NCBI GenBank assembly: GCA_964408995.1
Contig: CAYPBP010000001.1
Location: 74,823 to 138,822, forward strand
Direction of reading: 5' to 3'
Length of the DNA stretch: 64,000 bases
Origin: an uncultured Gammaproteobacteria bacterium
GTDB lineage: Bacteria; Patescibacteriota; Microgenomatia; UBA12405
In this document: piece by piece, positions 32,963-58,686 of the stretch
Layout: each line of letters opens with the position of its first letter
How positions within the stretch are numbered: the first letter of the stretch is position 1
Notes under the pieces: model-generated
Seen by the model: only the letters and a program-made list of their open reading frames with translations
Database searches by the model: none
What the model was told of the DNA's origin: nothing
Position numbers and translations under genes: made by a program

Positions 32963-33971
32963 TAAAATAGATTGGCAAATAAATTATATTGGTCGAAAAT
33001 ATAATTCTAGTGTTGACCAAACTCCTTCTATAGAATCCAAAGTAATTCCCAGTTTAGGTATAAACTTTTATTCAATTGACTGTGGCAAATTAGACAGAAG
33101 GTGGATTCCCAACACCATCAAAGGTCTCCCTCAAACTTTTAAATCAATTTTCAAGGCTTCTAAATTAATAAAACAAATAAAACCAGATGTTGTGCTTTCT
33201 TTTGGTGGTTATGTTTCTGTCCCTGTTGTTATCCAAAGTTTTTTAAAAAAAATTCCATCAATTACCCATGAGCAAACATTAACCAATAGTTTAACCACTA
33301 AAATAAACAGTTTTTTTGTCAGTAAAATTGCTTTATCTTTTGACAACAAAAATCAAAAAGAAAAACTGCCTAAAAATAAAATTGTAATTACCGGTAATCC
33401 CCTAAGAAACGAACTTTTTAATCCTCAAAAGTCAAAGACAGGGGACAGTCTTCAAAAGATTAATAAACCAGTTATATATATTACCGCTGGAAACCAGGGC
33501 TCACAAATCATAAACTCATTAATTAAAAAAATATTACCTAATTTGAAAAATTACTTTGTAATCCACCAAACTGGTAAAAACGATTTTCTAGATTTTAAAA
33601 AATTAATCAAAAAATATTCTAATTACAAAGCTTTTGATTATATAGACTCAAACGATCTTAGTCATATTTTTAAAAAAGCAGAATTAATCATAAGTCGATC
33701 AGGAGCTAATACTAGTCAAGAAATTATGGCTTTAAATAAAAAATCAATTTTAATTCCTCTAAAGGTTAGCCAACAAGATGAACAACTCTTAAACGCTCTT
33801 TTAGTAAAAGAAAAGCTTCCAAAATTAACAGAAATTATTGAAGAAAAAGATTTAAACAAATCTCAACTTTTAGACAGAATCTATAAATTAATTTCAATAA
33901 ATACAAAAAAAATAGATTTAAAAGACTCAGTTAACCTCAAATTGCTTAATTTAATCCATGAAATTATTTAA
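32871..33971 (+). CDS. murG: UDP-GlcNAc:undecaprenyl-PP-MurNAc-pentapeptide GlcNAc transferase
   Basis: GT28 architecture, about 366 aa, positioned after ftsW. Motif recognition is only moderate. Confidence 0.7.
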   Translation: MISTKIKKTIIITGTHLTPALELIRQLQKDNKIDWQINYIGRKYNSSVDQTPSIESKVIPSLGINFYSIDCGKLDRRWIPNTIKGLPQTFKSIFKASKLIKQIKPDVVLSFGGYVSVPVVIQSFLKKIPSITHEQTLTNSLTTKINSFFVSKIALSFDNKNQKEKLPKNKIVITGNPLRNELFNPQKSKTGDSLQKINKPVIYITAGNQGSQIINSLIKKILPNLKNYFVIHQTGKNDFLDFKKLIKKYSNYKAFDYIDSNDLSHIFKKAELIISRSGANTSQEIMALNKKSILIPLKVSQQDEQLLNALLVKEKLPKLTEIIEEKDLNKSQLLDRIYKLISINTKKIDLKDSVNLKLLNLIHEII

Positions 33972-34338
33972 ATTATTTTTATTTACTATTTTCTTTTTTG
34001 GATTATTACTTTCCGTTTATAATCTAAACAATTCCTTTGGAAAAAAGATAAATCCAAACTCTAATAAAAATAGTTTTTACCTTGAATTAGACAATATTTT
34101 AATCAAAGCTCAAATAAAAACGGTAAAAAACAATATTAGGGATTATCAAAATCAATTTGAATTCTATATAATTAATGAAAGCAACCCAATTAAAGTTATT
34201 TTATCAACCAAAAAGAACCCTTATTGGCAAATTGCTTCTTTACAAGAAATTTTAAAAAAAGCTAAAATTAATAATAAACAACTGCAATTAGTTGACCTAA
34301 GCATCAACCATCCATATGCAACATTCAAAAATAATTAA
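33958..34338 (+). CDS. small FtsQ/DivIB-like membrane protein (positional call)
   Basis: 126 aa with one N-terminal TM, immediately upstream of ftsA. Confidence 0.3.
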   Translation: MKLFKLFLFTIFFFGLLLSVYNLNNSFGKKINPNSNKNSFYLELDNILIKAQIKTVKNNIRDYQNQFEFYIINESNPIKVILSTKKNPYWQIASLQEILKKAKINNKQLQLVDLSINHPYATFKNN

Positions 34339-36755: not shown

Positions 36756-37007
36756 CTAACAATAAACTTCTCTTCTGTGTCCAACTTTTAAAATATAAAT
36801 CTTATTACCTTTTATTTCAAAAATAACTCGATAATTATTTATTCGATATCTGTACTCACCTAATTTAGAATTAATTAATTTTTTAGAAATTTTTAAAGGA
36901 TCTTTTTCTAACAACAATATCTTTTTACCAATCTTTTTTTTAACCACTGCATCAAGTTTTTTAATCTGACTAACTGCTTTTTTTGTAATTAAAATCTCAT
37001 ATTCCAC
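36756..37007 (-). CDS. type II toxin, RelE/ParE family
   Basis: 83 aa. The ...RYRINNYRVIFEIKGNKIYILKVGHRREVY ending is typical of RelE/ParE. Confidence 0.7.
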   Translation of the reverse strand: MEYEILITKKAVSQIKKLDAVVKKKIGKKILLLEKDPLKISKKLINSKLGEYRYRINNYRVIFEIKGNKIYILKVGHRREVYC

Positions 37008-37087
37008 AACTTTTTCAAGAAATCAAATAATTATTATATTAATTATAAACAAAGCGAAACAAAAATTACAAATTTAATTTGTAATTT

Positions 37088-37336
37088 TTATATTTTGCCA
37101 AAAATTTCATCAAAAGGATAGACCTCACCTTTTTCAATATTCTTTCTGGCATCTTCAATATCTTTTTTATATTTAGAATTCGCCAAAGCTAATAAATCTT
37201 CCAACATATCAATATTCACAATGGCTGACTTAATTTTTCCACGACTAGAGATTAAGATAAAATCTTTTTTATTTTCCACTAAATCTAGTGTATCTGCTAA
37301 GTTATTTCTTAATATTGTACTTGTTACTGTATTCAT
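37088..37336 (-). CDS. type II antitoxin, Phd/YefM family
   Basis: MNTVTSTILRNNLADTLDLVENKKDFILISSRGK is a Phd/YefM N-terminus. Directly upstream of the toxin. Confidence 0.7.
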   Translation of the reverse strand: MNTVTSTILRNNLADTLDLVENKKDFILISSRGKIKSAIVNIDMLEDLLALANSKYKKDIEDARKNIEKGEVYPFDEIFGKI

Positions 37337-37384
37337 AACTACAAATGTACATCTTAATTGTACAATTGTCAACATTTAATTTTA

Positions 37385-37518: not shown

Positions 37519-38046
37519 TTATGGTTTAAGTTGTTTAAATCTGTAGATAATATAATCTTCGCCAAAAATGGTTTCCAAAAGTTCTTCTTGATCTGCTGTC
37601 GGAGAAAATGTGCCTTCAATATGAAGCTTATCTTTAAAAAGGACACACTTCGTATTTGCTATAACCAACATGTTTTTTGTGGTTACATATGGACTTCCCA
37701 ATGTTTCATTTTGTTTTTTATGAATTCCCTCACTCTCGCCTCCGTCTTCAGCCTCATAGGCTAAACCAATTATGACTGTTCCTTTCGGAACCTTCATGTG
37801 CTCACCTGAAAACAAAACAGTTATTGCTGTTTTTGTCGCCGGTCTTGGATAATTATCCAAAATAGAATTAAGAACAATAGCTCCAACGACAATGCCGATG
37901 ATGAGACCAATAATAATACCGACATATAAATATGTCTTCCTTTTTGGCAGCTTCGTTTGCGGTGTTTTTTGTGTTTCTGTTTTTTTCGGGAAATTCGGAG
38001 GGGTGACTATAACTCCTTTGAACGGTTTATCATTTTCGTTTAACAT
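37519..38046 (-). CDS. hypothetical membrane-anchored protein (GC-richer, strong SD)
   Basis: N-terminal TM (YVGIIIGLIIGIVVGAIVL) and a canonical AAGGAG SD 9 nt upstream of ATG. Local GC appears higher than the flanking genes. Confidence 0.4.
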   Translation of the reverse strand: MLNENDKPFKGVIVTPPNFPKKTETQKTPQTKLPKRKTYLYVGIIIGLIIGIVVGAIVLNSILDNYPRPATKTAITVLFSGEHMKVPKGTVIIGLAYEAEDGGESEGIHKKQNETLGSPYVTTKNMLVIANTKCVLFKDKLHIEGTFSPTADQEELLETIFGEDYIIYRFKQLKP

Positions 38047-44163: not shown

Positions 44164-45015
44164 ATGTCAATAGGCAAAATTACTTTAATAATTGTTAATT
44201 ATAATTCTTCAGAAAATACCAATAAATTATTGTCATCTATCAAGAAATATATTTATGAAAATATCGATGAAACAATAATTATTGATAATAATTCCAATGA
44301 TATTAAAAAACTAAATGTTAAAGATAATAAAATAAAATTAATTATAAACAACAAGAATTTAGGTTTTGCTAAAGCAGTTAATCAAGGAATAGATAAATCA
44401 AAAAATAAATTTATTATTTTATTAAATCCAGACACCACTGTAATCGATAAATCTATTTCAGAAACTATCAACTTAATAATTAAAGATAACAACATAGGTG
44501 TAATAGGTGGAAAAATAAAATATAAAAATAAAAAAATATTTTCTGCGAACAACAAACCAACATTTCTAACTGGTCTTTTTGAATTTACTAACCTTAAAAA
44601 GGTATTCCCAAACAATAAATATACATTAAAATTCTGGCCAGAAAAAAATAATAAAATAACAAGGTTAATTGAAGTATTTGGAATCTGTGGAGCTTATATG
44701 ATTTTCAGAAAAAATGATAAAAAAGGTAAAATAAATTATTTTAATGAAAATTATTTTTTATACTTAGAAGACTTGGATTTTTGTTTAGATATGAAAGCGA
44801 AAGGTTTTAAAATTATTTTTGACCCAAAATCAACAATACTGCATATTGGAGGTGGTAGTAGTAACAATAAGTACAATATGGCATTAAATTATTGGTATAA
44901 ATCAAGAAAAATATTTTTCAAAAATCATCTAAACAAATGTGAAGGTATAATACTAAATATAATATTCACAATAGAAGAGTTACTTTTAAAAACACGTCTT
45001 CTTATAAAACCATGA
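44164..45015 (+). CDS. family 2 glycosyltransferase
   Basis: ITLIIVNYNSSENT...IIIDNNSND is a GT2 motif. Confidence 0.75.
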   Translation: MSIGKITLIIVNYNSSENTNKLLSSIKKYIYENIDETIIIDNNSNDIKKLNVKDNKIKLIINNKNLGFAKAVNQGIDKSKNKFIILLNPDTTVIDKSISETINLIIKDNNIGVIGGKIKYKNKKIFSANNKPTFLTGLFEFTNLKKVFPNNKYTLKFWPEKNNKITRLIEVFGICGAYMIFRKNDKKGKINYFNENYFLYLEDLDFCLDMKAKGFKIIFDPKSTILHIGGGSSNNKYNMALNYWYKSRKIFFKNHLNKCEGIILNIIFTIEELLLKTRLLIKP

Positions 45016-45785
45016 TTAAACATCCACACATATCCATCCTACTTCTTTCCCATAATGAAGAAAAGAATCTTCAAAAATATTGGACATGGATTGATAGATG
45101 TAAAAGAATAAACGAAATAATTGTTATTGATGATAATTCCGATGACTCTACTCAACAAATATTAAAAAATCTAGAAACTTCAAAAGTTAAAGTTAAAATT
45201 TTTGAAAGGGAATTGAATAATAATTTTTCTGACCAACGTAATTTTGGTATCACCAAATGTACTAACAATTGGATTCTTTGGCTTGACGCTGATGAAAAAC
45301 CAAGCGGCAGTTTAATCCGATTTTTGAATCATATCGATAATCTTGAATATAAAAACTATGCCTTTAAAAGGCACGATATCTTTATTGGCAACGAGCTTAA
45401 GCATGGCGAAAACGCCAATCAATATTTCTTAAGATTTTTTAATAAAAAATATGGTCGCTTCACTGGCGCTGTTCATGAAGTTTGGCAAAGTCCAAAAGAA
45501 ATTTCATACAAAAAATTTCACATTCACCATTATCCTCACACATCTCTAAAATCATTTATCAAGAAACTGAATTTTTATTCAGACATCAGAGCTCAAGAAC
45601 TTTTTGATCAAAACCAAAGCAGTAATTTATTTGAAATAATTTTTTATCCAATGGGCAAATTTATCCAAGATTACTTTTTCAAACTAGGCTTTCTAGATTC
45701 CACCCCGGGCATAATCATGGCCCTTGGCATGAGTTTTCATTCATTTTTAGTTAGAGCCAAATTATGGCATTTATCACATCAATAA
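45012..45785 (+). CDS. family 2 glycosyltransferase
   Basis: ISILLLSHNEEKNL...IVIDDNSDDST...WLDADE (DxD). Confidence 0.75.
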   Translation: MIKHPHISILLLSHNEEKNLQKYWTWIDRCKRINEIIVIDDNSDDSTQQILKNLETSKVKVKIFERELNNNFSDQRNFGITKCTNNWILWLDADEKPSGSLIRFLNHIDNLEYKNYAFKRHDIFIGNELKHGENANQYFLRFFNKKYGRFTGAVHEVWQSPKEISYKKFHIHHYPHTSLKSFIKKLNFYSDIRAQELFDQNQSSNLFEIIFYPMGKFIQDYFFKLGFLDSTPGIIMALGMSFHSFLVRAKLWHLSHQ

Positions 45786-46840
45786 TTTATTTATCCACAA
45801 TTATTGTCTTCTTTTTTGGACAATTATTAAGAATTGAAATAATTAATATTTCATTTCCCGTCATTGATATTTTAATAGCTATTGTCTTTTGTTTTAATAT
45901 TTTCCAAAAAGTAAAAAATAAGGATTTTAAGGTAAAAAATAAATATTTACTTTATTTTTTAATTTTCGCTTGGCTTATTTTTTGGTTTAATTATTTTCGA
46001 TATCAATTTGATTTTATTAAGCCAATTTTATATTTATTTAGACTAACTTTTTTATTCTCTTTTCTAACTTTTCCACCAACAATACCTCAAAATTTAAAAA
46101 AAATATTTCACTTAATTATTTTTAGCAATATTATTTTTGGTCTAATTCAATATCTTATTTGGCCAAATTTTACTTACTTTAATTCTTTAAACTGGGATCC
46201 TCATTTATATCGTTTAGTCAGTACTTTTTTTGATCCAACTTTCACTGCTTTAATCTATTTATCTTTAATAATAATTGCCTTCTTGGACAAAAAATTTCCT
46301 CTAAGAAAAACCGTTTTAGCAATTTCTTATCTAGCTATGGTATTAACTTATAGCCGTTCCACTTATCTTTCTTTTTTAATTGCTTTTACTTTTATTTCTT
46401 ATCAAAAAAGAAATTTAAAAATCTTTATTTTAAGTTTAGTTTTAATTACTTCAACTGTTTTTTTCTTACCTAGACTTGAAGGCGAGGGGACTAAATTAGA
46501 GAGAACCTCGTCTATTAAAGCTAAAATTGAAAATTATAAAGAAGCTTTTAACTTATTTCTAAAAGCTCCAGTCATTGGACATGGATACAATAATCTTTCT
46601 TATCTCCGATCCATTACAAATCAGGATTCTCATGCTAATTCAGGCTTTGACGGCTCTTTGATGACCATTTTAACTACCACTGGCACTATAGGATTATTTT
46701 TATTTGTTTTGGGATTTAAAAAAACATTTAATCAAAGCAATTTAACCAAAAAAACAATTTTAATTTCCATCTTTTTTCATTCTCTTTTTGCCAATTCTCT
46801 TTTGTATCCCTTCATATTATTATTACTAATTTTTATTTAG
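45764..46840 (+). CDS. O-antigen ligase/polymerase-like polytopic membrane protein
   Basis: More than 9 TM segments and a Wzy_C-like periplasmic loop, located beside the GT2 genes. Confidence 0.55.
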   Translation: MAFITSIIYLSTIIVFFFGQLLRIEIINISFPVIDILIAIVFCFNIFQKVKNKDFKVKNKYLLYFLIFAWLIFWFNYFRYQFDFIKPILYLFRLTFLFSFLTFPPTIPQNLKKIFHLIIFSNIIFGLIQYLIWPNFTYFNSLNWDPHLYRLVSTFFDPTFTALIYLSLIIIAFLDKKFPLRKTVLAISYLAMVLTYSRSTYLSFLIAFTFISYQKRNLKIFILSLVLITSTVFFLPRLEGEGTKLERTSSIKAKIENYKEAFNLFLKAPVIGHGYNNLSYLRSITNQDSHANSGFDGSLMTILTTTGTIGLFLFVLGFKKTFNQSNLTKKTILISIFFHSLFANSLLYPFILLLLIFI

Positions 46841-49019: not shown

Positions 49020-49631
49020 ATGAAAAACTTTGATAACAAACAAGAACAAACACTCGTATTAGTTAAACCAGACGGTGTTCAAAGAGGTTTAATTGGTGAA
49101 GCCATTAAACGGTACGAACAATGTGGTCTTAAATTAGTTGCTATTAAAATGGTTCTTCCAAATAAAGAAATGGCCTTAACCCATTACTCAGTAGATCCAG
49201 AATGGCCTTTAAAAACAGGTACTAAAGCCATTGAAGCATGGAAAGCTAAAGGTCTTACTCCTCCAACAGAAGACCCAATTGAATTAGCCGAAGGTGTCCG
49301 CCAAACTCTAATTTCTTTTCTTACTAGTGGACCAGTTGTCGCTATGGTTTGGCAAGGTATGAACGCTGTTGGAGTTATTAGAAAAATTACTGGTAGTACT
49401 GAACCATTAACTTCTGCTCCAGGAACTATTCGTGGTGATTACACTATTGATTCATATCAAGCTTCAGATATAGATAAAAGATCAGTCAGAAATATAATTC
49501 ATGCTTCTGGCTCAGTTGAAGAAGCTCAAAAAGAAATGCCAATTTGGTTTAAACCAGAAGAAATTATCAACTATCGATTACTTAGTGAAGCTATTATTTA
49601 CGATGTAAATCTTGATGGAATTCTAGAGTAA
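49020..49631 (+). CDS. ndk: nucleoside diphosphate kinase (extended form)
   Basis: LVLVKPDGVQRGLIGEAIKRYE and the NIIHASGS active-site His. At 203 aa it is about 50 aa longer than a typical Ndk. Confidence 0.85.
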   Translation: MKNFDNKQEQTLVLVKPDGVQRGLIGEAIKRYEQCGLKLVAIKMVLPNKEMALTHYSVDPEWPLKTGTKAIEAWKAKGLTPPTEDPIELAEGVRQTLISFLTSGPVVAMVWQGMNAVGVIRKITGSTEPLTSAPGTIRGDYTIDSYQASDIDKRSVRNIIHASGSVEEAQKEMPIWFKPEEIINYRLLSEAIIYDVNLDGILE

Positions 49632-50411
49632 ATCTTTTTGAGCCATCAAAGTTTCATAACCCAAATCAATTAGTTTTTGGTAATTCTTTTTTCTAAAGTC
49701 AAGAATAAAAGTTTTGTTTTCTTTCATATTCAAATAAACAATTTTTCTTCTTTTAAAAAAACTAATTTTTTGCATACTAATAATTTGCTGCATTAAAGCC
49801 ACTGAAGAATATAAAACATTAGCAGCAGAAGTTTTTTCATCTATTTTTTTTATTGGACCAGTAATATCAGACACAATAATTTTGGAAACTGGTGGTAAAA
49901 GCAAAATAGGAACATTGTTAATAACCCCTCCATCAACCAAAAAACGATCACCAATCTCAACAGGATGAAAAATACCTGGAATAGAAACTGAGGCTACTAA
50001 AGCTGGAAAAAGTTTGCCTTTATTAAAAACTACTTCTTTTTTTCGATTAACATCAGTCGCATTAAAAACCAAAGGAATCTTAAGATCTAAAAAATTATCA
50101 ACCTTGAGGTAATTTCTTAAAAAATTCTCGATACTATTTTTATAATTATTTCTGGTAGCCAAAAGTAAAGCTTTTGACAATTTCAAAAAATCAATTTCTC
50201 TAGAAATTTTTTCAAAATCAACTTGTGGATCAGCTGCATAAACAGCCCCAACCACAGCTCCAATCGAAGTTCCAGAAATATAATCAATTTTTATATTTAA
50301 TTCTTGTAAAGCCTTGATTACTCCCATATGAAAAAAACCTCTAGCTCCACCACCGCTCAAAACCAAGCCAACTGATTTTCTTTTATAAAAAAGATTAGCC
50401 AAAATATTCAT
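49623..50411 (-). CDS. patatin-like phospholipase
   Basis: GLVLSGGGARG oxyanion motif, GTSIGA nucleophile elbow, and a DGG aspartate. Confidence 0.8.
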   Translation of the reverse strand: MNILANLFYKRKSVGLVLSGGGARGFFHMGVIKALQELNIKIDYISGTSIGAVVGAVYAADPQVDFEKISREIDFLKLSKALLLATRNNYKNSIENFLRNYLKVDNFLDLKIPLVFNATDVNRKKEVVFNKGKLFPALVASVSIPGIFHPVEIGDRFLVDGGVINNVPILLLPPVSKIIVSDITGPIKKIDEKTSAANVLYSSVALMQQIISMQKISFFKRRKIVYLNMKENKTFILDFRKKNYQKLIDLGYETLMAQKDLL

Positions 50412-50675
50412 ATCTAATTATACGCCAAAATGAATCTATTTTTTAGTCCTATAGTTTGATTTTCCCCTTATTATTGATATAATCTGAACAATTTTATTAA
50501 TTAATCTAAAGCAGATTAAATTAATAAAAATGTACTTTAACAATCAATAAACTCAAACAATTTATATTGCTGCAATGCATCTCTTTGTGCCAAAATCTTT
50601 GACCCAAAGCGATGTATTGTTAACAATATATTGTAAGAATAAAGACGTATAAAAAGAAAGGGAAGGTTGTTTATC

Positions 50676-51278
50676 ATGAAAGGATGGGTATTTGCCAGTA
50701 TCTGCAAAAACTTAACGGATGAGGAGCAAGATTATGAGATTCTAACAGGATCGAATGAATTGGCCGAATTCGTTAAACCAGACAATTCAACAACTATAAC
50801 AATCGTAAGAAAAGACGGGGTTGGTTATCTGTACACAGGCGAAATTAAGAAAAAGCTTCCTTGCATAAGCGGATTTATGGTTGAAAAAGTCTACAGGTTG
50901 AATTTTATACTCGACAAGAACAAAATGGTTCTCTTGTCACTAACCAAAGAAGGGGCTAAGTTGTTTCCCGATGGAATAGCATCACAAATGCGATTTTTTT
51001 GGATCGAAAATATAGCCGAATGTCCAATGAATACCGCAAGACCTATTCTTGAAGGATGGTGGTTCGACGATATCTGTAATGATCCAACAATACTTAAGGG
51101 AAAACCTAACAGCGAAATCGGCTGGCCGACAGACATCAACATTAACGAATATCAAGAAATAGATCACAATGAGAGAATACATCTGATTAAAGAGCTCAAT
51201 AAGCTTGCTGACGCTAACCCCAACTGCCAACAAGAAATATTGCAAATGATTAAAAAAAACAGAAAGGAGGATGACTAA
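50676..51278 (+). CDS. hypothetical protein (cassette gene A, about 200 aa, no recognisable family)
   Basis: ATG preceded by the AAGGGAAGG SD. GC content is visibly higher than the host genes. The ORF track start at 50667 is a TTG; I prefer the ATG. Confidence 0.5.
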   Translation: MKGWVFASICKNLTDEEQDYEILTGSNELAEFVKPDNSTTITIVRKDGVGYLYTGEIKKKLPCISGFMVEKVYRLNFILDKNKMVLLSLTKEGAKLFPDGIASQMRFFWIENIAECPMNTARPILEGWWFDDICNDPTILKGKPNSEIGWPTDININEYQEIDHNERIHLIKELNKLADANPNCQQEILQMIKKNRKEDD

Positions 51279-51280
51279 TC

Positions 51281-51562
51281 ATGGATAAAACAAAAAACAT
51301 CTATAAACAAGCTTTCAAACCAACCACCGGCGCCGACATATTATTAGCCATCGAAAAGCTTCTTAATCCGGAAAAACCAATCGTTATTTGTATAAATAGC
51401 GAGATACTTGACCCCAACCATACAAATTTAGTAGCCAACAGAATTCAAGTTGGTATTGTAACTAACAACGAAACTAAGGAAGAAAGTATCATTATCGGCA
51501 ATTTGGACAACTTCTGCAGAAACAAACAATACACCTTAAAAAAATCCGAAACACCGCAATAA
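51281..51562 (+). CDS. hypothetical protein (cassette gene B, 93 aa)
   Basis: Strong SD AAAGGAGGA 7 nt upstream. It starts 2 nt after the gene A stop, so the two form an operon. Confidence 0.45.
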   Translation: MDKTKNIYKQAFKPTTGADILLAIEKLLNPEKPIVICINSEILDPNHTNLVANRIQVGIVTNNETKEESIIIGNLDNFCRNKQYTLKKSETPQ

Positions 51563-51660
51563 GAGTTTATTGATTGAAATAGGGGAGCAGTAATATGCAA
51601 GCAAACACAAATGCATAATACCTAGCTCCCCTTTTCAATGCCAAAAATTTATTTGTTCAT

Positions 51661-51693
51661 TAAAAAATCCCCAAAGATAGGGGATTTTTGTTT
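51661..51693 (+). terminator. rho-independent terminator
   Basis: AAATCCCCAAAGATAGGGGATTTTTGTTTTT is a 7-bp GC stem plus a U-tract. A longer hairpin (GGGGAGC...GCTCCCC) lies upstream at 51583-51640. Confidence 0.6.
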
Positions 51694-51698
51694 TTAAG

Positions 51699-51772
51699 CG
51701 GGTCTGATGGGATTCGAACCCACGATCTTCCGCGTGACAGGCGGATGTGCTAGACCGCTGCACCACAAACCC
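51699..51772 (-). tRNA. tRNA-Asp (anticodon GTC)
   Basis: The reverse complement has acceptor GGGTTTG/CAGACCC (one G-U), D-arm GTGCAGCGGTCTAGCAC, anticodon loop CTGTCAC, T-arm GTGGGTTCGAATCCCAT. Confidence 0.85.
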
Positions 51773-51893
51773 TTGGTCTATTATTTATCTTGATACTATA
51801 CCAAAACTTGTCACAACAAACAACAAATTGTTTTTATAAAAAAGGAAAATTAAAAAATGTTATACTGAAATAATTAAAAATTAATTTAAAAAA

Positions 51894-52472
51894 ATGATTT
51901 ATCCAATTATCTTAATTGCCGCTTTAGCTTTTTATATTTTTGCCTTTTTTAATAAATTAAAAACACTTCAAGTCAGAATTAAAGCCTCTATTCAAGAAAT
52001 CGGTAACCAACTTAAACGTCAAGCCAATTTAATTCCAAATCTAGTCGATTCTGTTAAGGGTTATATGAAACATGAAAAAGGTATTTTTGACCAACTTACA
52101 GAAGCCAGAAAATCAGTCGAAGCTGCTGTCAAAACTAATGATCCAAAAGCTATGGATAAATCTCAAGAATTAATCAATAAAGCCCTTGGTTCGATTAATG
52201 TCGTTATGGAAAGCAATCCAGAAATTAAAGCCTCAAATCTTGTTTCTGATTTAATGAACGAGCTTCGAGACACTGCTGATAAATTAATGTATGCCAGACG
52301 CACTTTAATTGATCTTGCTGCTGATTTTAATACTTCTATTTCTATAATTCCAGGAATTTGGATTGCTCCAATATTAGGATTTAAAGAAGAAAAAGGTTTA
52401 GAAACTCCTGTGGAAAGCGAACAATTAAAAGTTTCCGAATCAGAAACTAAAAATCCTGAAGTTAAACTATAA
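51894..52472 (+). CDS. lemA: LemA family protein
   Basis: N-terminal TM plus the LemA core (IPNLVDSVKGYMKHEKGIFDQLTEAR). Confidence 0.8.
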   Translation: MIYPIILIAALAFYIFAFFNKLKTLQVRIKASIQEIGNQLKRQANLIPNLVDSVKGYMKHEKGIFDQLTEARKSVEAAVKTNDPKAMDKSQELINKALGSINVVMESNPEIKASNLVSDLMNELRDTADKLMYARRTLIDLAADFNTSISIIPGIWIAPILGFKEEKGLETPVESEQLKVSESETKNPEVKL

Positions 52473-58011: not shown

Positions 58012-58686
58012 TTACTTTAGAACATTATATCCAACAATTTCGAAATCACTTTGATTATTGTTAGCCATAAAGAATAAATAATCTGGAGTTATCATATCTG
58101 GAATATTTTGAATATTTACTATATTTTCACTAAACAATTGTTTAAAAATAAGATCAGCACAAGTTAATTTTTTATTTTCTTTTTTAGGAATTCCAAAAAT
58201 ATAATCCTTATCTTGGGCAATATTTATTAAGTTATTTTTTATAATATCTAACTTATTATTGTAATTTTTAGGTCTAACAATAACAAAATTATTCATATCA
58301 AAATTAAACCAATCACTTTTTGATAATTTTTCTATTTTAATATCATCATCACGATTTTTTTCTTTACCAACCGCTTGCACTATTTGATCATCACCTAAAT
58401 AAAAAGCTGAATGTGTAAAATAAGGATTAGCTAATTTGTTAAACAAAAATGTACGTTGAGTAATATATCTACGAATCAAAATATCACCAGGTAATAATTT
58501 ACATTCAATTATTTTTACACACTGAAATACATCATTTGTTAATGAATTTGTAACTTCATCATAAGAAAGTCTAAAAATTTTTTTATAAAAATTTAAACTT
58601 AAAACATAAACACCTAGTATAATAAGAAATAAAGATATTCCAGTCGTAAATATTATTAATAATCTTAATTTACGATTATTATTCAT
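58012..58686 (-). CDS. YiiX/YaeF-like permuted papain-fold (NlpC/P60 superfamily) protein
   Basis: N-terminal TM. His precedes Cys (HSAFYLGDDQIVQAVGK ... LTCADLIFKQL), as in the permuted papain family. Family assignment is tentative. Confidence 0.4.
   Translation of the reverse strand: MNNNRKLRLLIIFTTGISLFLIILGVYVLSLNFYKKIFRLSYDEVTNSLTNDVFQCVKIIECKLLPGDILIRRYITQRTFLFNKLANPYFTHSAFYLGDDQIVQAVGKEKNRDDDIKIEKLSKSDWFNFDMNNFVIVRPKNYNNKLDIIKNNLINIAQDKDYIFGIPKKENKKLTCADLIFKQLFSENIVNIQNIPDMITPDYLFFMANNNQSDFEIVGYNVLK

What the first reader, a model, noticed from the sequence alone, without database searches (positions are those of the whole stretch)
50412..51698. GC-richer two-gene cassette of unknown function with strong SDs, inserted at the 3' end of tRNA-Asp
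Host genes in this window mostly lack Shine-Dalgarno sequences and are about 28% GC. The two co-directional ORFs at 50676-51278 (about 200 aa) and 51281-51562 (93 aa) are visibly GC-richer (about 40%). Both have canonical strong SDs (AAGGGAAGG, AAAGGAGGA). They are separated by 2 nt, so they form an operon. They are followed by two hairpins, including a textbook terminator, which directly abuts the 3' end of a minus-strand tRNA-Asp; tRNA 3' ends are a classic integration site. Upstream lies a 255-bp AT-rich spacer with a TTGACC box and two perfect palindromes (ATTGTTAACAAT, CAATATATTG) that look like operator sites. I can assign neither protein to a known family. A large protein paired with a small one, in a compact horizontally acquired cassette at a tRNA, is the typical layout of toxin-antitoxin and anti-phage defence modules. 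No integrase is present, so it may be a remnant island.
Basis: partly seen in the sequence, partly recalled or inferred. Interest (0 to 1): 0.8.

Follow-up and report, generated by a model that had tools for sequence, protein, structure and literature searches.

The report
Hypervariable orphan two-gene cassette
Two small genes of unknown function lie between a phospholipase gene and a tRNA gene in an uncultured ultra-small bacterium, where they are a long-term resident whose sequence differs almost completely between close relatives while the DNA on both sides stays nearly identical, as happens with molecular arms-race or recognition genes.

Summary
ORF A (50676-51278, 200 aa) and ORF B (51281-51562, 93 aa) are real genes under purifying selection. 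They have strong SDs, a 2-nt gap, two downstream hairpins and an abutting tRNA-Asp. Third-position GC is 0.40 against a host value of 0.20 (about 6 sd).

The "island inserted at a tRNA" reading is only partly right. There is no att repeat and no integrase. In 1.8-5.8 billion proteins the family has only 7 distinct members. Every one sits at this same patatin/tRNA-Asp locus in one narrow Patescibacteria clade.

The new result is hypervariability. Flanking genes are 85-98% identical in protein (dS 0.3-0.9). The cassette falls to 21-50% identity with saturated dS. The breaks are sharp, at the A ribosome-binding site and the B stop codon, and close alleles are mosaic. These are old alleles swapped by homologous recombination between conserved flanks.

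A has an N-terminal domain paralogous to B, followed by a small beta-barrel and a helical hairpin. In two lineages A is split into two ORFs. Nothing matches any TA, defence, phage or other family.

Best reading, inferred: a cognate binding pair in a conflict or recognition system. Function is unproven.

The parts
50456..50483 (+). Promoter-like site TTGATT-16 nt-(TG)TATAAT for the A-B operon
   Evidence: Scores 10/12 with an extended -10 TG. The TGATATAAT core is invariant in all six aligned alleles, including those that lack the long leader. Promoter function is inferred, not shown.
50492..50529 (+). Leader hairpin 1 (AU-rich), directly downstream of the promoter
   Evidence: Present in both the MFE and the centroid fold. 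Also reported as inverted repeats I1-I4. Conserved in every allele except L007.
50541..50554 (+). Left arm of a perfect 14-nt inverted repeat, CAATCAATAAACTC, that brackets the cassette
   Evidence: Pairs with 51563-51576. It is equally perfect in L006 and L054, whose A/B alleles are only 32-44% identical to the window's. Six of 2000 dinucleotide shuffles of the two spacers give a repeat of 14 nt or more. Function is unknown.
50563..50630 (+). Leader hairpin 2, a nearly invariant non-coding element that contains the TTGACC box and both palindromes
   Evidence: The consensus structure has 26 pairs. Two A-to-G changes in L054 keep their pairs as G-U; there are no double compensatory changes. The spacer is 94% identical between the window and L006, whereas synonymous sites of the adjacent patatin gene are only 65% identical. 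The hairpin is absent in L007 and L056. No Rfam family matches.
50658..50666 (+). Shine-Dalgarno sequence of ORF A (AAGGGAAGG)
   Evidence: Read from the sequence. A is one of only 4 of 56 ORFs in the window with a 5-mer SD. The identity break against L006 begins here.
50676..51278 (+). ORF A, 200 aa. N-domain (aa 1-78, 50676-50909) is B-like. C-domain (aa 79-200) is a small beta-barrel followed by a C-terminal helical hairpin.
51263..51271 (+). Shine-Dalgarno sequence of ORF B, embedded in the last codons of A (AGA AAG GAG = the conserved RKE tail)
   Evidence: Seen in the sequence and in the alignment of alleles. The 2-nt gap suggests translational coupling, which is an inference.
51281..51562 (+). 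ORF B, 93 aa, a free-standing copy of the domain that forms the N-terminus of A
   Evidence: dN/dS is 0.24-0.61. Alleles are 32-64% identical. B is present after A in L001, L002, L003, L006 and L056. In L054 it is a pseudogene with two in-frame stops.
51563..51576 (+). Right arm of the 14-nt inverted repeat, GAGTTTATTGATTG, starting at the first base after the B stop codon
   Evidence: Sequence conservation between alleles resumes at exactly this point.
51573..51639 (+). Long bipartite hairpin (GGGGAGC...GCUCCCC with an inner AUGCA...UGCAU) followed by UUUUC
   Evidence: The stem is kept through compensatory changes among alleles (GGGGAGC, GGGGGC, GGAGCAG, GGGCAGA); two pairs have double changes. 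It follows B in every allele, including L054 and L056, where another gene comes after it.
51663..51696 (.). Terminator hairpin AAAAATCCCC-7 nt-GGGGATTTTT plus a T-run, lying between the cassette and tRNA-Asp. It reads as a terminator on both strands.
51698..51772 (-). tRNA-Asp(GTC), the flanking landmark. It is not part of the cassette.
   Evidence: ARAGORN. Rfam tRNA at 67.9 bits. No second copy of its 3' end exists in the window.

Best explanation
Shown:
- The region is a resident, lineage-restricted accessory operon of one narrow Patescibacteria clade. Its parts, in order, are: promoter, structured leader, A, B, hairpin, terminator.
- It exists as deeply diverged allelic forms. The coding cassette is far older than the genome backbone around it, or has been exchanged among backbones. 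Alleles are mosaic.
- The sharp identity breaks at the A ribosome-binding site and the B stop codon show that alleles are swapped by homologous recombination, with the conserved leader and the 3' hairpin region acting as homology arms.
- A is a fusion of a B-like domain with a small beta-barrel plus helical-hairpin domain. In some lineages the two halves are separate ORFs.
- B is translated from an SD buried in the end of A.

Inferred:
- A and B form a cognate binding pair. The barrel/helix domain of A would be the active or sensing part. The B-like modules, one in cis at the A N-terminus and one in trans as B, would be its specific partners.
- Long-term balancing or frequency-dependent selection of the kind seen in toxin-immunity, toxin-antitoxin, anti-phage or self/non-self recognition loci would keep many specificities alive.
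- The invariant positions are mostly hydrophobic or glycine rather than a catalytic set. I therefore expect action by binding rather than by enzymatic activity.
For: Distribution:
- An exhaustive HMM search of 1.84 billion representatives finds only 5 real relatives. Word-indexed searches of 5.8 billion add none.
- Every member lies beside the same patatin gene, which is 85-94% identical.
- L056 shows the full shared synteny: LysM, ArsR, NDK, patatin..., A, B..., tRNA-Asp, LemA, M48, DnaE.

Hypervariability:
- Window against L006: about 92% nt identity up to 50650, about 50% from 50650 to 51562, and about 75-90% beyond.
- Patatin has dS 0.29-0.55 and dN 0.03-0.06. The A C-domain has dS 1.7-3.1 and dN 0.52-0.77. 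B has dS 1.5-4.6 and dN 0.47-0.49.
- Allele similarity does not follow backbone similarity. L007 has the closest patatin (92.6% nt) and the most distant A (28% aa).
- The closest pair switches along A/B among the window, L001 and L002, which shows intragenic mosaicism (segment dS values).
- Purifying selection acts within allele classes.

Composition: foreign-like GC3 and an SD.

Architecture:
- N-domain/B paralogy.
- Split N and C ORFs.
- Structural model.
- Invariant residues are G93, F97, F108, I110, C116, G127, I148, D153 and Y159.

Flanks: conserved, structured leader and 3' hairpin.
Against: - No function has been demonstrated, and no physical A-B interaction was tested.
- There is no similarity to any toxin, antitoxin, immunity or defence family.
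- The family is confined to one locus in one clade, unlike typical mobile conflict systems.
- B is a pseudogene in L054 while the N and C ORFs stay intact. So B is not strictly needed to neutralise A, which argues against a simple toxin-antitoxin relation.
- Saturated dS could also come from repeated import from an unsampled donor pool rather than from balancing selection.
- Only seven alleles are known, mostly on short contigs, so population-level tests were not possible.
Confidence: 0.45

Rival explanations
1. A recently acquired genomic islet integrated site-specifically at the 3' end of tRNA-Asp and later lost its integrase. It carries a TA or defence cargo.
For: GC3 is 0.40 against 0.20, the codon usage is atypical, and A carries an SD that is rare in this genome. 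The cassette is adjacent to the tRNA 3' end. The interval is a variable hotspot in relatives, holding extra SAICAR-synthetase-like, CPT-like kinase, 188-aa and HEPN-like genes in L054 and L056.
Against: There is no att-like repeat of the tRNA end and no direct repeats other than AT-rich chance matches. There is no integrase. The pair sits in the same place in all seven lineages, with conserved promoter, leader and hairpins. In L054 and L056 another gene separates B from the tRNA side. No homologue exists outside this locus in any collection.
Confidence: 0.1
2. A canonical type II toxin-antitoxin module. A or its C-domain is a growth-arresting toxin. B is a labile proteic antitoxin that also represses the operon at the leader palindromes.
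For: Two small, tightly coupled genes. Palindromes lie in a conserved leader. Rapid co-diversification is typical of cognate pairs. MazF and CcdB-class toxins are also small beta-barrels, which is general knowledge. Weak Foldseek rows hit CptN and MazF at E 0.6-1.6.
Confidence: 0.15
3. A non-conflict accessory function. These would be lineage-specific small beta-barrel proteins, for example RNA-, ribosome- or RNA-polymerase-binding regulators. They would have diverged fast because they are young orphan genes under weak constraint, or because a divergent copy was imported once or twice.
For: The best fold neighbours are nucleic-acid or RNAP-associated SH3-like barrels: L19, the UvrD/PcrA Tudor domain, CarD, KOW and Sm-like proteins. 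The strongly conserved, structured 5' leader suggests regulated expression. There are no catalytic invariant residues. B is dispensable in L054.
Against: Weak constraint cannot explain saturated synonymous divergence beside near-identical non-coding flanks with sharp breaks. It also cannot explain dN/dS of about 0.2 within allele classes. At least five deeply distinct allele classes occur among backbones that differ by only 7-13% nt in patatin, and the alleles are mosaic.
Confidence: 0.2
4. The pair works with the divergently transcribed patatin-like phospholipase, for example as a sensor or regulator of a lipase effector, as in patatin-containing defence systems.
For: Every A homologue lies next to this patatin gene, and the two share an intergenic region. 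The patatin protein hits PADLOC 'phospholipase effector' models at E 1.7e-9.
Against: Co-occurrence is confounded by the single-clade distribution. Patatin orthologues of 54-66% identity in other Patescibacteria have no A/B. Unrelated genes are inserted between patatin and A in L054 and L056. Patatin is a slowly evolving core-like gene with dN 0.03-0.06, not a co-diversifying partner. The PADLOC hit is generic patatin-domain similarity.
Confidence: 0.05
5. The 14-nt inverted repeats mark an invertible (phase-variable) DNA segment, or a 5'-3' mRNA pairing element, that switches A/B expression.
For: A perfect 14-nt inverted repeat brackets leader hairpin 2, A and B. It is conserved in three allele classes, and 6 of 2000 shuffles reach that length. 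The promoter lies outside the left arm, so inversion would switch the genes off.
Against: All recovered loci have the same orientation. No recombinase is nearby. Both arms lie in flanks that are conserved anyway, and there are no compensatory changes. In L056 the arms match only 12 of 14 positions and in L002 there is a bulge. The chance probability is small but not negligible in AT-rich DNA.
Confidence: 0.05

Closest known systems
Allelic specificity cassettes flanked by conserved DNA, for example the staphylococcal agr hypervariable region (agrB-D-C) and pneumococcal comC/comD pherotypes (general knowledge)
   Same: Interacting gene products are encoded by a short segment that is extremely divergent between strains, while the flanks are conserved. 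Boundaries are sharp and exchange is by recombination. Several old allele classes exist.
   Different: Those systems encode a secreted peptide with a membrane receptor and processing enzyme. A and B have no signal peptide, no transmembrane segment and no similarity to them. The A-B interaction is inferred only.
Type II toxin-antitoxin modules, for example the ParE/Phd pair at 36756-37375 of this same window
   Same: A compact two-gene operon of small cytoplasmic proteins, with tight translational coupling, palindromes upstream and rapid co-diversification.
   Different: No toxin or antitoxin family match. The order is large-then-small, and the large protein carries a copy of the small one. The pair is restricted to one locus in one clade. 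B is lost in L054 without loss of A. The bona fide TA in this window has host-like GC3 (0.16-0.20) and no SD.
Defence and accessory-gene hotspots between conserved core genes, often beside tRNA genes (general knowledge from studies of defence islands and hotspots)
   Same: The patatin/tRNA-Asp interval differs in gene content between close relatives. Extra genes include a CPT-like kinase, a SAICAR-synthetase-like gene, a 188-aa orphan and a HEPN_Cthe2314-like gene.
   Different: In typical hotspots the cargo genes are unrelated between strains. Here the A/B genes are always present and homologous but hyper-divergent. No PADLOC model matches them.
Small beta-barrel (SH3-like: Tudor, KOW, L19, Sm) domain proteins

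Membership tests
Type II toxin-antitoxin system | At least one partner belongs to a recognised toxin or antitoxin superfamily | tested here: not met
   Pfam, NCBIfam, PADLOC and PHROGs were scanned for the window proteins and 10 allelic variants, and PDB profile searches were run. There are no significant hits. The same Pfam scan detects ParE (E 5.7e-12) and Phd/YefM (E 2.9e-7) elsewhere in the window.
Type II toxin-antitoxin system | Two adjacent, co-transcribed small genes with coupled translation | tested here: met
   The gap is 2 nt and the SD of B lies inside the end of A. There is one upstream promoter-like site and terminators only after B. Co-transcription itself is inferred.
Type II toxin-antitoxin system | The antitoxin is indispensable while the toxin is intact | tested here: not met
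   In L054 the B gene carries two in-frame stop codons while the N and C ORFs of A are intact. This rests on one lineage and a Logan assembly.
Type II toxin-antitoxin system | Toxicity of one partner is neutralised by direct binding of the other, with autorepression at operator palindromes | not testable with these tools
   This needs expression, binding and footprinting experiments. Palindromes exist at 50616-50633 but lie inside a predicted RNA hairpin.
Known anti-phage defence systems (PADLOC-DB v2) | A protein matches a defence-system HMM, with the system's partner genes present | tested here: not met
   No PADLOC hit for A, B or their variants. Only the neighbouring patatin gives a generic phospholipase-effector hit.
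tRNA-targeted integrative island | A direct repeat of the tRNA 3' end (attL/attR) bounds the insert | tested here: not met
   The 23-nt tRNA-Asp 3' segment occurs once in the window even when 3 mismatches are allowed. No meaningful direct repeats exist in 49500-52000.
tRNA-targeted integrative island | An integrase or recombinase gene or remnant, and presence/absence polymorphism among close relatives | tested here: not met
   There is no such ORF between patatin and LemA. The cassette is present in all 7 related lineages. No empty site was found, but relatives of intermediate distance have lost synteny, so the test is incomplete.
Hypervariable allelic cassette maintained or exchanged by homologous recombination | Divergence of the cassette, including synonymous sites, far exceeds that of the flanks, with sharp boundaries | tested here: met
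   Flank dS is 0.29-0.93 and cassette dS is 1.5-4.6. The spacer is 94% identical to L006 and the cassette 53%.
Hypervariable allelic cassette maintained or exchanged by homologous recombination | Phylogenetic incongruence or mosaicism | tested here: met
   The nearest-neighbour pair switches along A/B among the window, L001 and L002. A-allele distances do not track patatin distances.
Hypervariable allelic cassette maintained or exchanged by homologous recombination | Several alleles co-exist within populations (balancing selection) | not tested
   This needs read-level analysis of the source metagenomes (SRR8925755, SRR8925793, ERR7570004, ERR3687825 and others).
Rfam cis-regulatory RNA (riboswitch or leader) for the 5' leader | Match to a curated covariance model | tested here: not met
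   Only the tRNA passes. Nothing in 50412-50675 scores better than E of about 9.

The most novel reading that the evidence does not exclude
A/B would be the first described member of a new kind of allelic specificity module in Candidate Phyla Radiation bacteria. An effector or sensor barrel (the A C-domain) would be gated by interchangeable copies of one small domain, one fused in cis and one free in trans. Many mutually incompatible specificities would be kept by frequency-dependent selection, for example against CPR phages or in strain or partner recognition. The whole coding unit would be exchanged between strains through a dedicated conserved frame: promoter plus structured leader on the left, and the 14-nt inverted-repeat arm plus bipartite hairpin on the right.
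Probability: 0.15. Interest if true: 0.7.

Novelty: new variant of a known kind. Interest (0 to 1): 0.42.

Why it matters
Patescibacteria (CPR) have tiny, streamlined genomes, and little is known about how they deal with phages, competitors or their host cells. A locus kept at one chromosomal position while its two genes are replaced by deeply diverged alleles is a clear mark of ongoing molecular conflict or recognition. The proteins form a family with no known relatives. Their duplicated-domain architecture, with a B-like module both fused to A and free-standing, suggests a testable binding logic. If confirmed, it would add a new protein family to the catalogue of conflict systems and give a strain-typing marker for this clade. 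If not, it remains an ordinary fast-evolving orphan operon in a variable region.

Tried and rejected
- Family assignment. Pfam, NCBIfam, PADLOC and PHROGs were scanned for A, B and ten variants. PDB sequence-profile searches were run with three alignments. Nothing was significant. The weak rows (alpha-glucosidase MalA, SecB, ALG13, HtrA1, ComC) are noise.
- Mobile-element origin. No att repeat. No hit in IMG/VR contigs, by protein patterns for A and B or by leader DNA. No hit in GenBank phages or PLSDB plasmids.
- Empty-site comparison. Patatin-anchored scans of genome and metagenome contigs returned relatives of 66% identity or less that have lost the patatin/tRNA-Asp synteny. No informative empty site was found.
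- Leader peptide. The 25-codon ORF at 50575-50652 is disrupted by a 1-nt indel in L006, and its changes in L054 are non-synonymous and end in an early stop. It was rejected as coding.
- Co-evolving unit. I tested whether the A C-terminal helices and B travel together. Breakpoints fall between them: L001 and L002 are closest in the A tail, while the window and L001 are closest at the start of B. Not supported.
- P0008 (746 aa, 9 repeats), from the exhaustive search, is a low-complexity repeat artefact and not a relative.
- From memory, the 'IGN..EN' motif of B recalls the phage YopX family. No Pfam or PHROG hit supports this, so it was dropped.
- One literature search (Patescibacteria, hypervariable, strain) returned nothing relevant.
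Full report
**1. What is there**

The window is an AT-rich (30.8% GC) stretch of a Patescibacteria (CPR) genome. The nearest named relatives of its patatin gene are Candidatus Shapirobacteria MAGs, at only 54-55% identity.

Two co-directional ORFs lie between a minus-strand patatin-like phospholipase gene (49623-50411) and a minus-strand tRNA-Asp(GTC) (51698-51772). A is 50676-51278 (200 aa) and B is 51281-51562 (93 aa). They are 2 nt apart. Both have strong SDs. The SD of B (AAAGGAGGA) is formed by the last codons of A, which encode the conserved RKE tail.

A 264-bp, 25%-GC spacer lies upstream. Downstream are a long bipartite hairpin (51573-51639) and a terminator hairpin (51663-51689) that reads as a terminator on both strands. 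The 3' region folds with z = -6.4.

The compositional anomaly is real but is best seen at third codon positions. GC3 of A+B is 0.403. Contiguous 293-codon host chunks have mean 0.203, sd 0.033 and maximum 0.297, and the codon preferences differ. Only 4 of 56 ORFs carry a 5-mer SD. Twenty of 56 have a TATAAT-like box within 22 nt of the start, so this genome mostly uses short or absent leaders.

**2. Are they genes, and who else has them**

Both are under purifying selection against alleles of about 80% identity. dN/dS is about 0.2 for A and 0.24-0.61 for B.

The family is extraordinarily small. A word-indexed search of 5.8 billion proteins found two relatives of A and none of B. An exhaustive HMM search of 1.84 billion cluster representatives added four more real ones and one repeat artefact. 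A profile search with all of them added nothing. There are no hits in IMG/VR contigs, GenBank phages or PLSDB plasmids. No Pfam, NCBIfam, PADLOC, PHROG or PDB-sequence family matches any allele.

**3. Context in relatives**

Every family member sits next to the same patatin gene, which is 85-94% identical in protein.

L056 (NCBI GCA_019248215.1) is collinear with the window from the LysM gene through ArsR, NDK and patatin, and again from tRNA-Asp through LemA, M48 peptidase and DnaE. So the pair is a resident of this locus throughout a narrow clade and not a fresh insertion.

No repeat of the tRNA 3' end and no integrase is present. Patatin orthologues of 66% identity or less have lost this synteny and have no A/B, so no empty site could be examined.

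The interval is nevertheless a variable spot.
- L056 has an extra SAICAR-synthetase-like gene and a 188-aa orphan.
- L054 has a CPT-like P-loop kinase, the same 188-aa orphan, a HEPN_Cthe2314-like gene and a 257-aa gene.

**4. The main result: hypervariability in a conserved frame**

Between the window and L006, nucleotide identity is about 92% through NDK, patatin and the spacer up to about 50650. It drops abruptly to about 50% from the A ribosome-binding site to the B stop codon. It returns to about 75-90% from 51563 onward.

| Region | dS | dN |
|---|---|---|
| Patatin (window vs L006, L007, L054, L056) | 0.29-0.55 | 0.03-0.06 |
| NDK, LemA, M48, DnaE (window vs L056) | 0.48-0.93 | 0.03-0.09 |
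| A C-domain | 1.7-3.1 | 0.52-0.77 |
| B | 1.5-4.6 | 0.47-0.49 |

The adjacent non-coding spacer is 94% identical between the window and L006, more conserved than the synonymous sites of patatin (65%).

Allele distance does not track backbone distance. L007 has the most similar patatin (92.6% nt) and the most divergent A (28% aa). Among the closer alleles (window, L001, L002) the nearest pair switches along the genes, which shows intragenic mosaicism.

In-situ mutation, relaxed constraint or positive selection alone cannot produce saturated synonymous divergence beside near-identical non-coding DNA. The alleles must be much older than the backbones, or drawn from a diverged pool, and moved by homologous recombination that uses the conserved flanks.

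The GC3 excess holds for the C-domain and B in most alleles (0.29-0.41). It does not hold for L007 (0.20) or for the separate N ORFs (0.18-0.22).

**5. Protein anatomy**

In L054 and L056, A is encoded as two ORFs: N (72-81 aa) and C (127-128 aa). Both lineages are split at the same point, so A is a two-module protein.

The N module is homologous to B.
- hhalign gives E 1.2e-5 and score 32 over 65 collinear columns. Thirty column-shuffled controls reach at most 15, and C against B reaches 21.
- blastp of N against B from the same locus gives E 2.5e-4 for L056 and 3e-3 for L054.

The invariant residues are mainly glycine and hydrophobic ones (G93, F97, F108, I110, C116, G127, I148, D153, Y159). 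That points to a binding protein rather than an enzyme, which is an inference. Neither protein shows a signal peptide or a membrane segment on inspection. A is acidic (pI about 5) and B is neutral to basic.

In L054, B has two in-frame stops while N and C are intact.

**6. Non-coding anatomy**

A promoter-like TTGATT-16-TGATATAAT (50456-50483) is invariant in all alleles. Most alleles then carry a leader of about 190 nt with two hairpins, at 50492-50529 and 50563-50630. It is nearly invariant. Its only two stem changes, in L054, are A-to-G changes that keep G-U pairs. There are no double compensatory changes, and the fold z-score is a modest -2.4. It is missing in L007 and L056. No Rfam family matches.

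A perfect 14-nt inverted repeat brackets hairpin 2, A and B. Its arms are CAATCAATAAACTC (50541-50554) and GAGTTTATTGATTG (51563-51576). It is perfect in three allele classes and degraded in L002 and L056. Six of 2000 dinucleotide shuffles reach that length. Its role is unexplained; it could be mRNA 5'-3' pairing, a recombination or inversion site, or chance.

The 3' bipartite hairpin is kept through compensatory changes.

**7. Interpretation**

Well supported: this is a resident, clade-restricted, hypervariable allelic cassette exchanged by homologous recombination.

Inferred: A and B are a cognate binding pair. The A barrel/helix domain would be partnered by B-like modules in cis and in trans, under the long-term diversifying or balancing selection typical of conflict or recognition systems. 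I give this combined reading about 0.45.

| Rival | Weight | Main objections |
|---|---|---|
| Classical type II TA | 0.15 | No family match; B is dispensable in L054; the module is not mobile. The window's genuine ParE/Phd pair at 36756-37375 is readily detected and has host-like composition. |
| Non-conflict small-barrel regulator | 0.2 | Does not explain the saturated dS beside conserved flanks. |
| Recent tRNA-integrated islet | 0.1 | See sections 3 and 4. |
| Functional coupling to patatin | 0.05 | See the rival entry. |
| IR-mediated switch | 0.05 | See the rival entry. |

**8. Novelty and score**

The proteins form a new, tiny family with an unusual duplicated-domain layout. The phenomenon itself, a strain-variable cassette in a conserved frame beside a tRNA, is a known kind. 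Function is unproven. I rate interest at 0.42 and novelty as a new variant of a known kind.

Noticed in passing
window 36756-37375 (minus strand): A bona fide type II toxin-antitoxin pair. ParE/RelE-like toxin of 83 aa (PF05016, E 5.7e-12) and Phd/YefM antitoxin of 95 aa (PF02604, E 2.9e-7). GC3 is host-like (0.16-0.20) and there is no SD. It serves as an internal positive control for TA detection.
   Followed up: partly
window 37519-38046 (minus strand): A 175-aa orphan ORF with one hydrophobic segment, a strong SD (GAAGGAG) and raised GC3 (0.30). It has no Pfam family and lies directly upstream of the ParE/Phd pair. It is a second compositionally atypical gene in the window.
   Followed up: partly
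whole window: Translation and transcription signals are unusual. Only 4 of 56 ORFs of at least 100 aa have a 5-mer SD, while 20 of 56 have TA[TA]AAT within 22 nt of the ATG. The patatin gene, for example, has TATAAT 8 nt before its ATG. This implies widespread leaderless or very short-leader mRNAs.
   Followed up: partly
L054 3626-3910: The B homologue in this relative carries two in-frame stop codons (TAA and TGA), while the split N and C ORFs of A remain intact. Either B is a pseudogene or the assembly has errors.
   Followed up: partly
L056 7045-7611 and L054 4085-4651: A conserved 188-aa orphan with host-like GC3 (0.13-0.16) lies downstream of the post-B hairpin. In L056 it sits between that hairpin and tRNA-Asp; no tRNA was found on the L054 contig. 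It is absent from the window and has no family hit.
   Followed up: partly
L054 2265-2750 and L021 216-698: By eye, a CPT-like P-loop kinase (PF07931) appears nearly identical in two contigs whose patatin genes are both only about 65% identical or less to the window's. This suggests a horizontally mobile accessory gene that lands next to patatin. The identity was not computed.
   Followed up: no
L054 4734-5321 (minus strand): A HEPN_Cthe2314-like protein (PF18730, E 3.1e-7) sits in the variable interval of one relative. HEPN domains are common in defence and TA contexts.
   Followed up: no
window 44164-46840, 58012-58686 and 33958-34338: Markedly low-GC genes (21-24% GC), including family-2 glycosyltransferases at 44164-45785. 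This may be a variable surface-glycan region of different origin.
   Followed up: no
window 50541-50554 and 51563-51576: A perfect 14-nt inverted repeat brackets the cassette and is conserved across three allele classes. Six of 2000 shuffles reach that length. No mechanism has been established.
   Followed up: partly
Genome-contig loci L008-L010: The closest patatin relatives in the species-representative genome set are MAGs labelled 'uncultured Gammaproteobacteria'. Their gene content and AT-richness look Patescibacteria-like, so the taxonomic labels are probably wrong.
   Followed up: no
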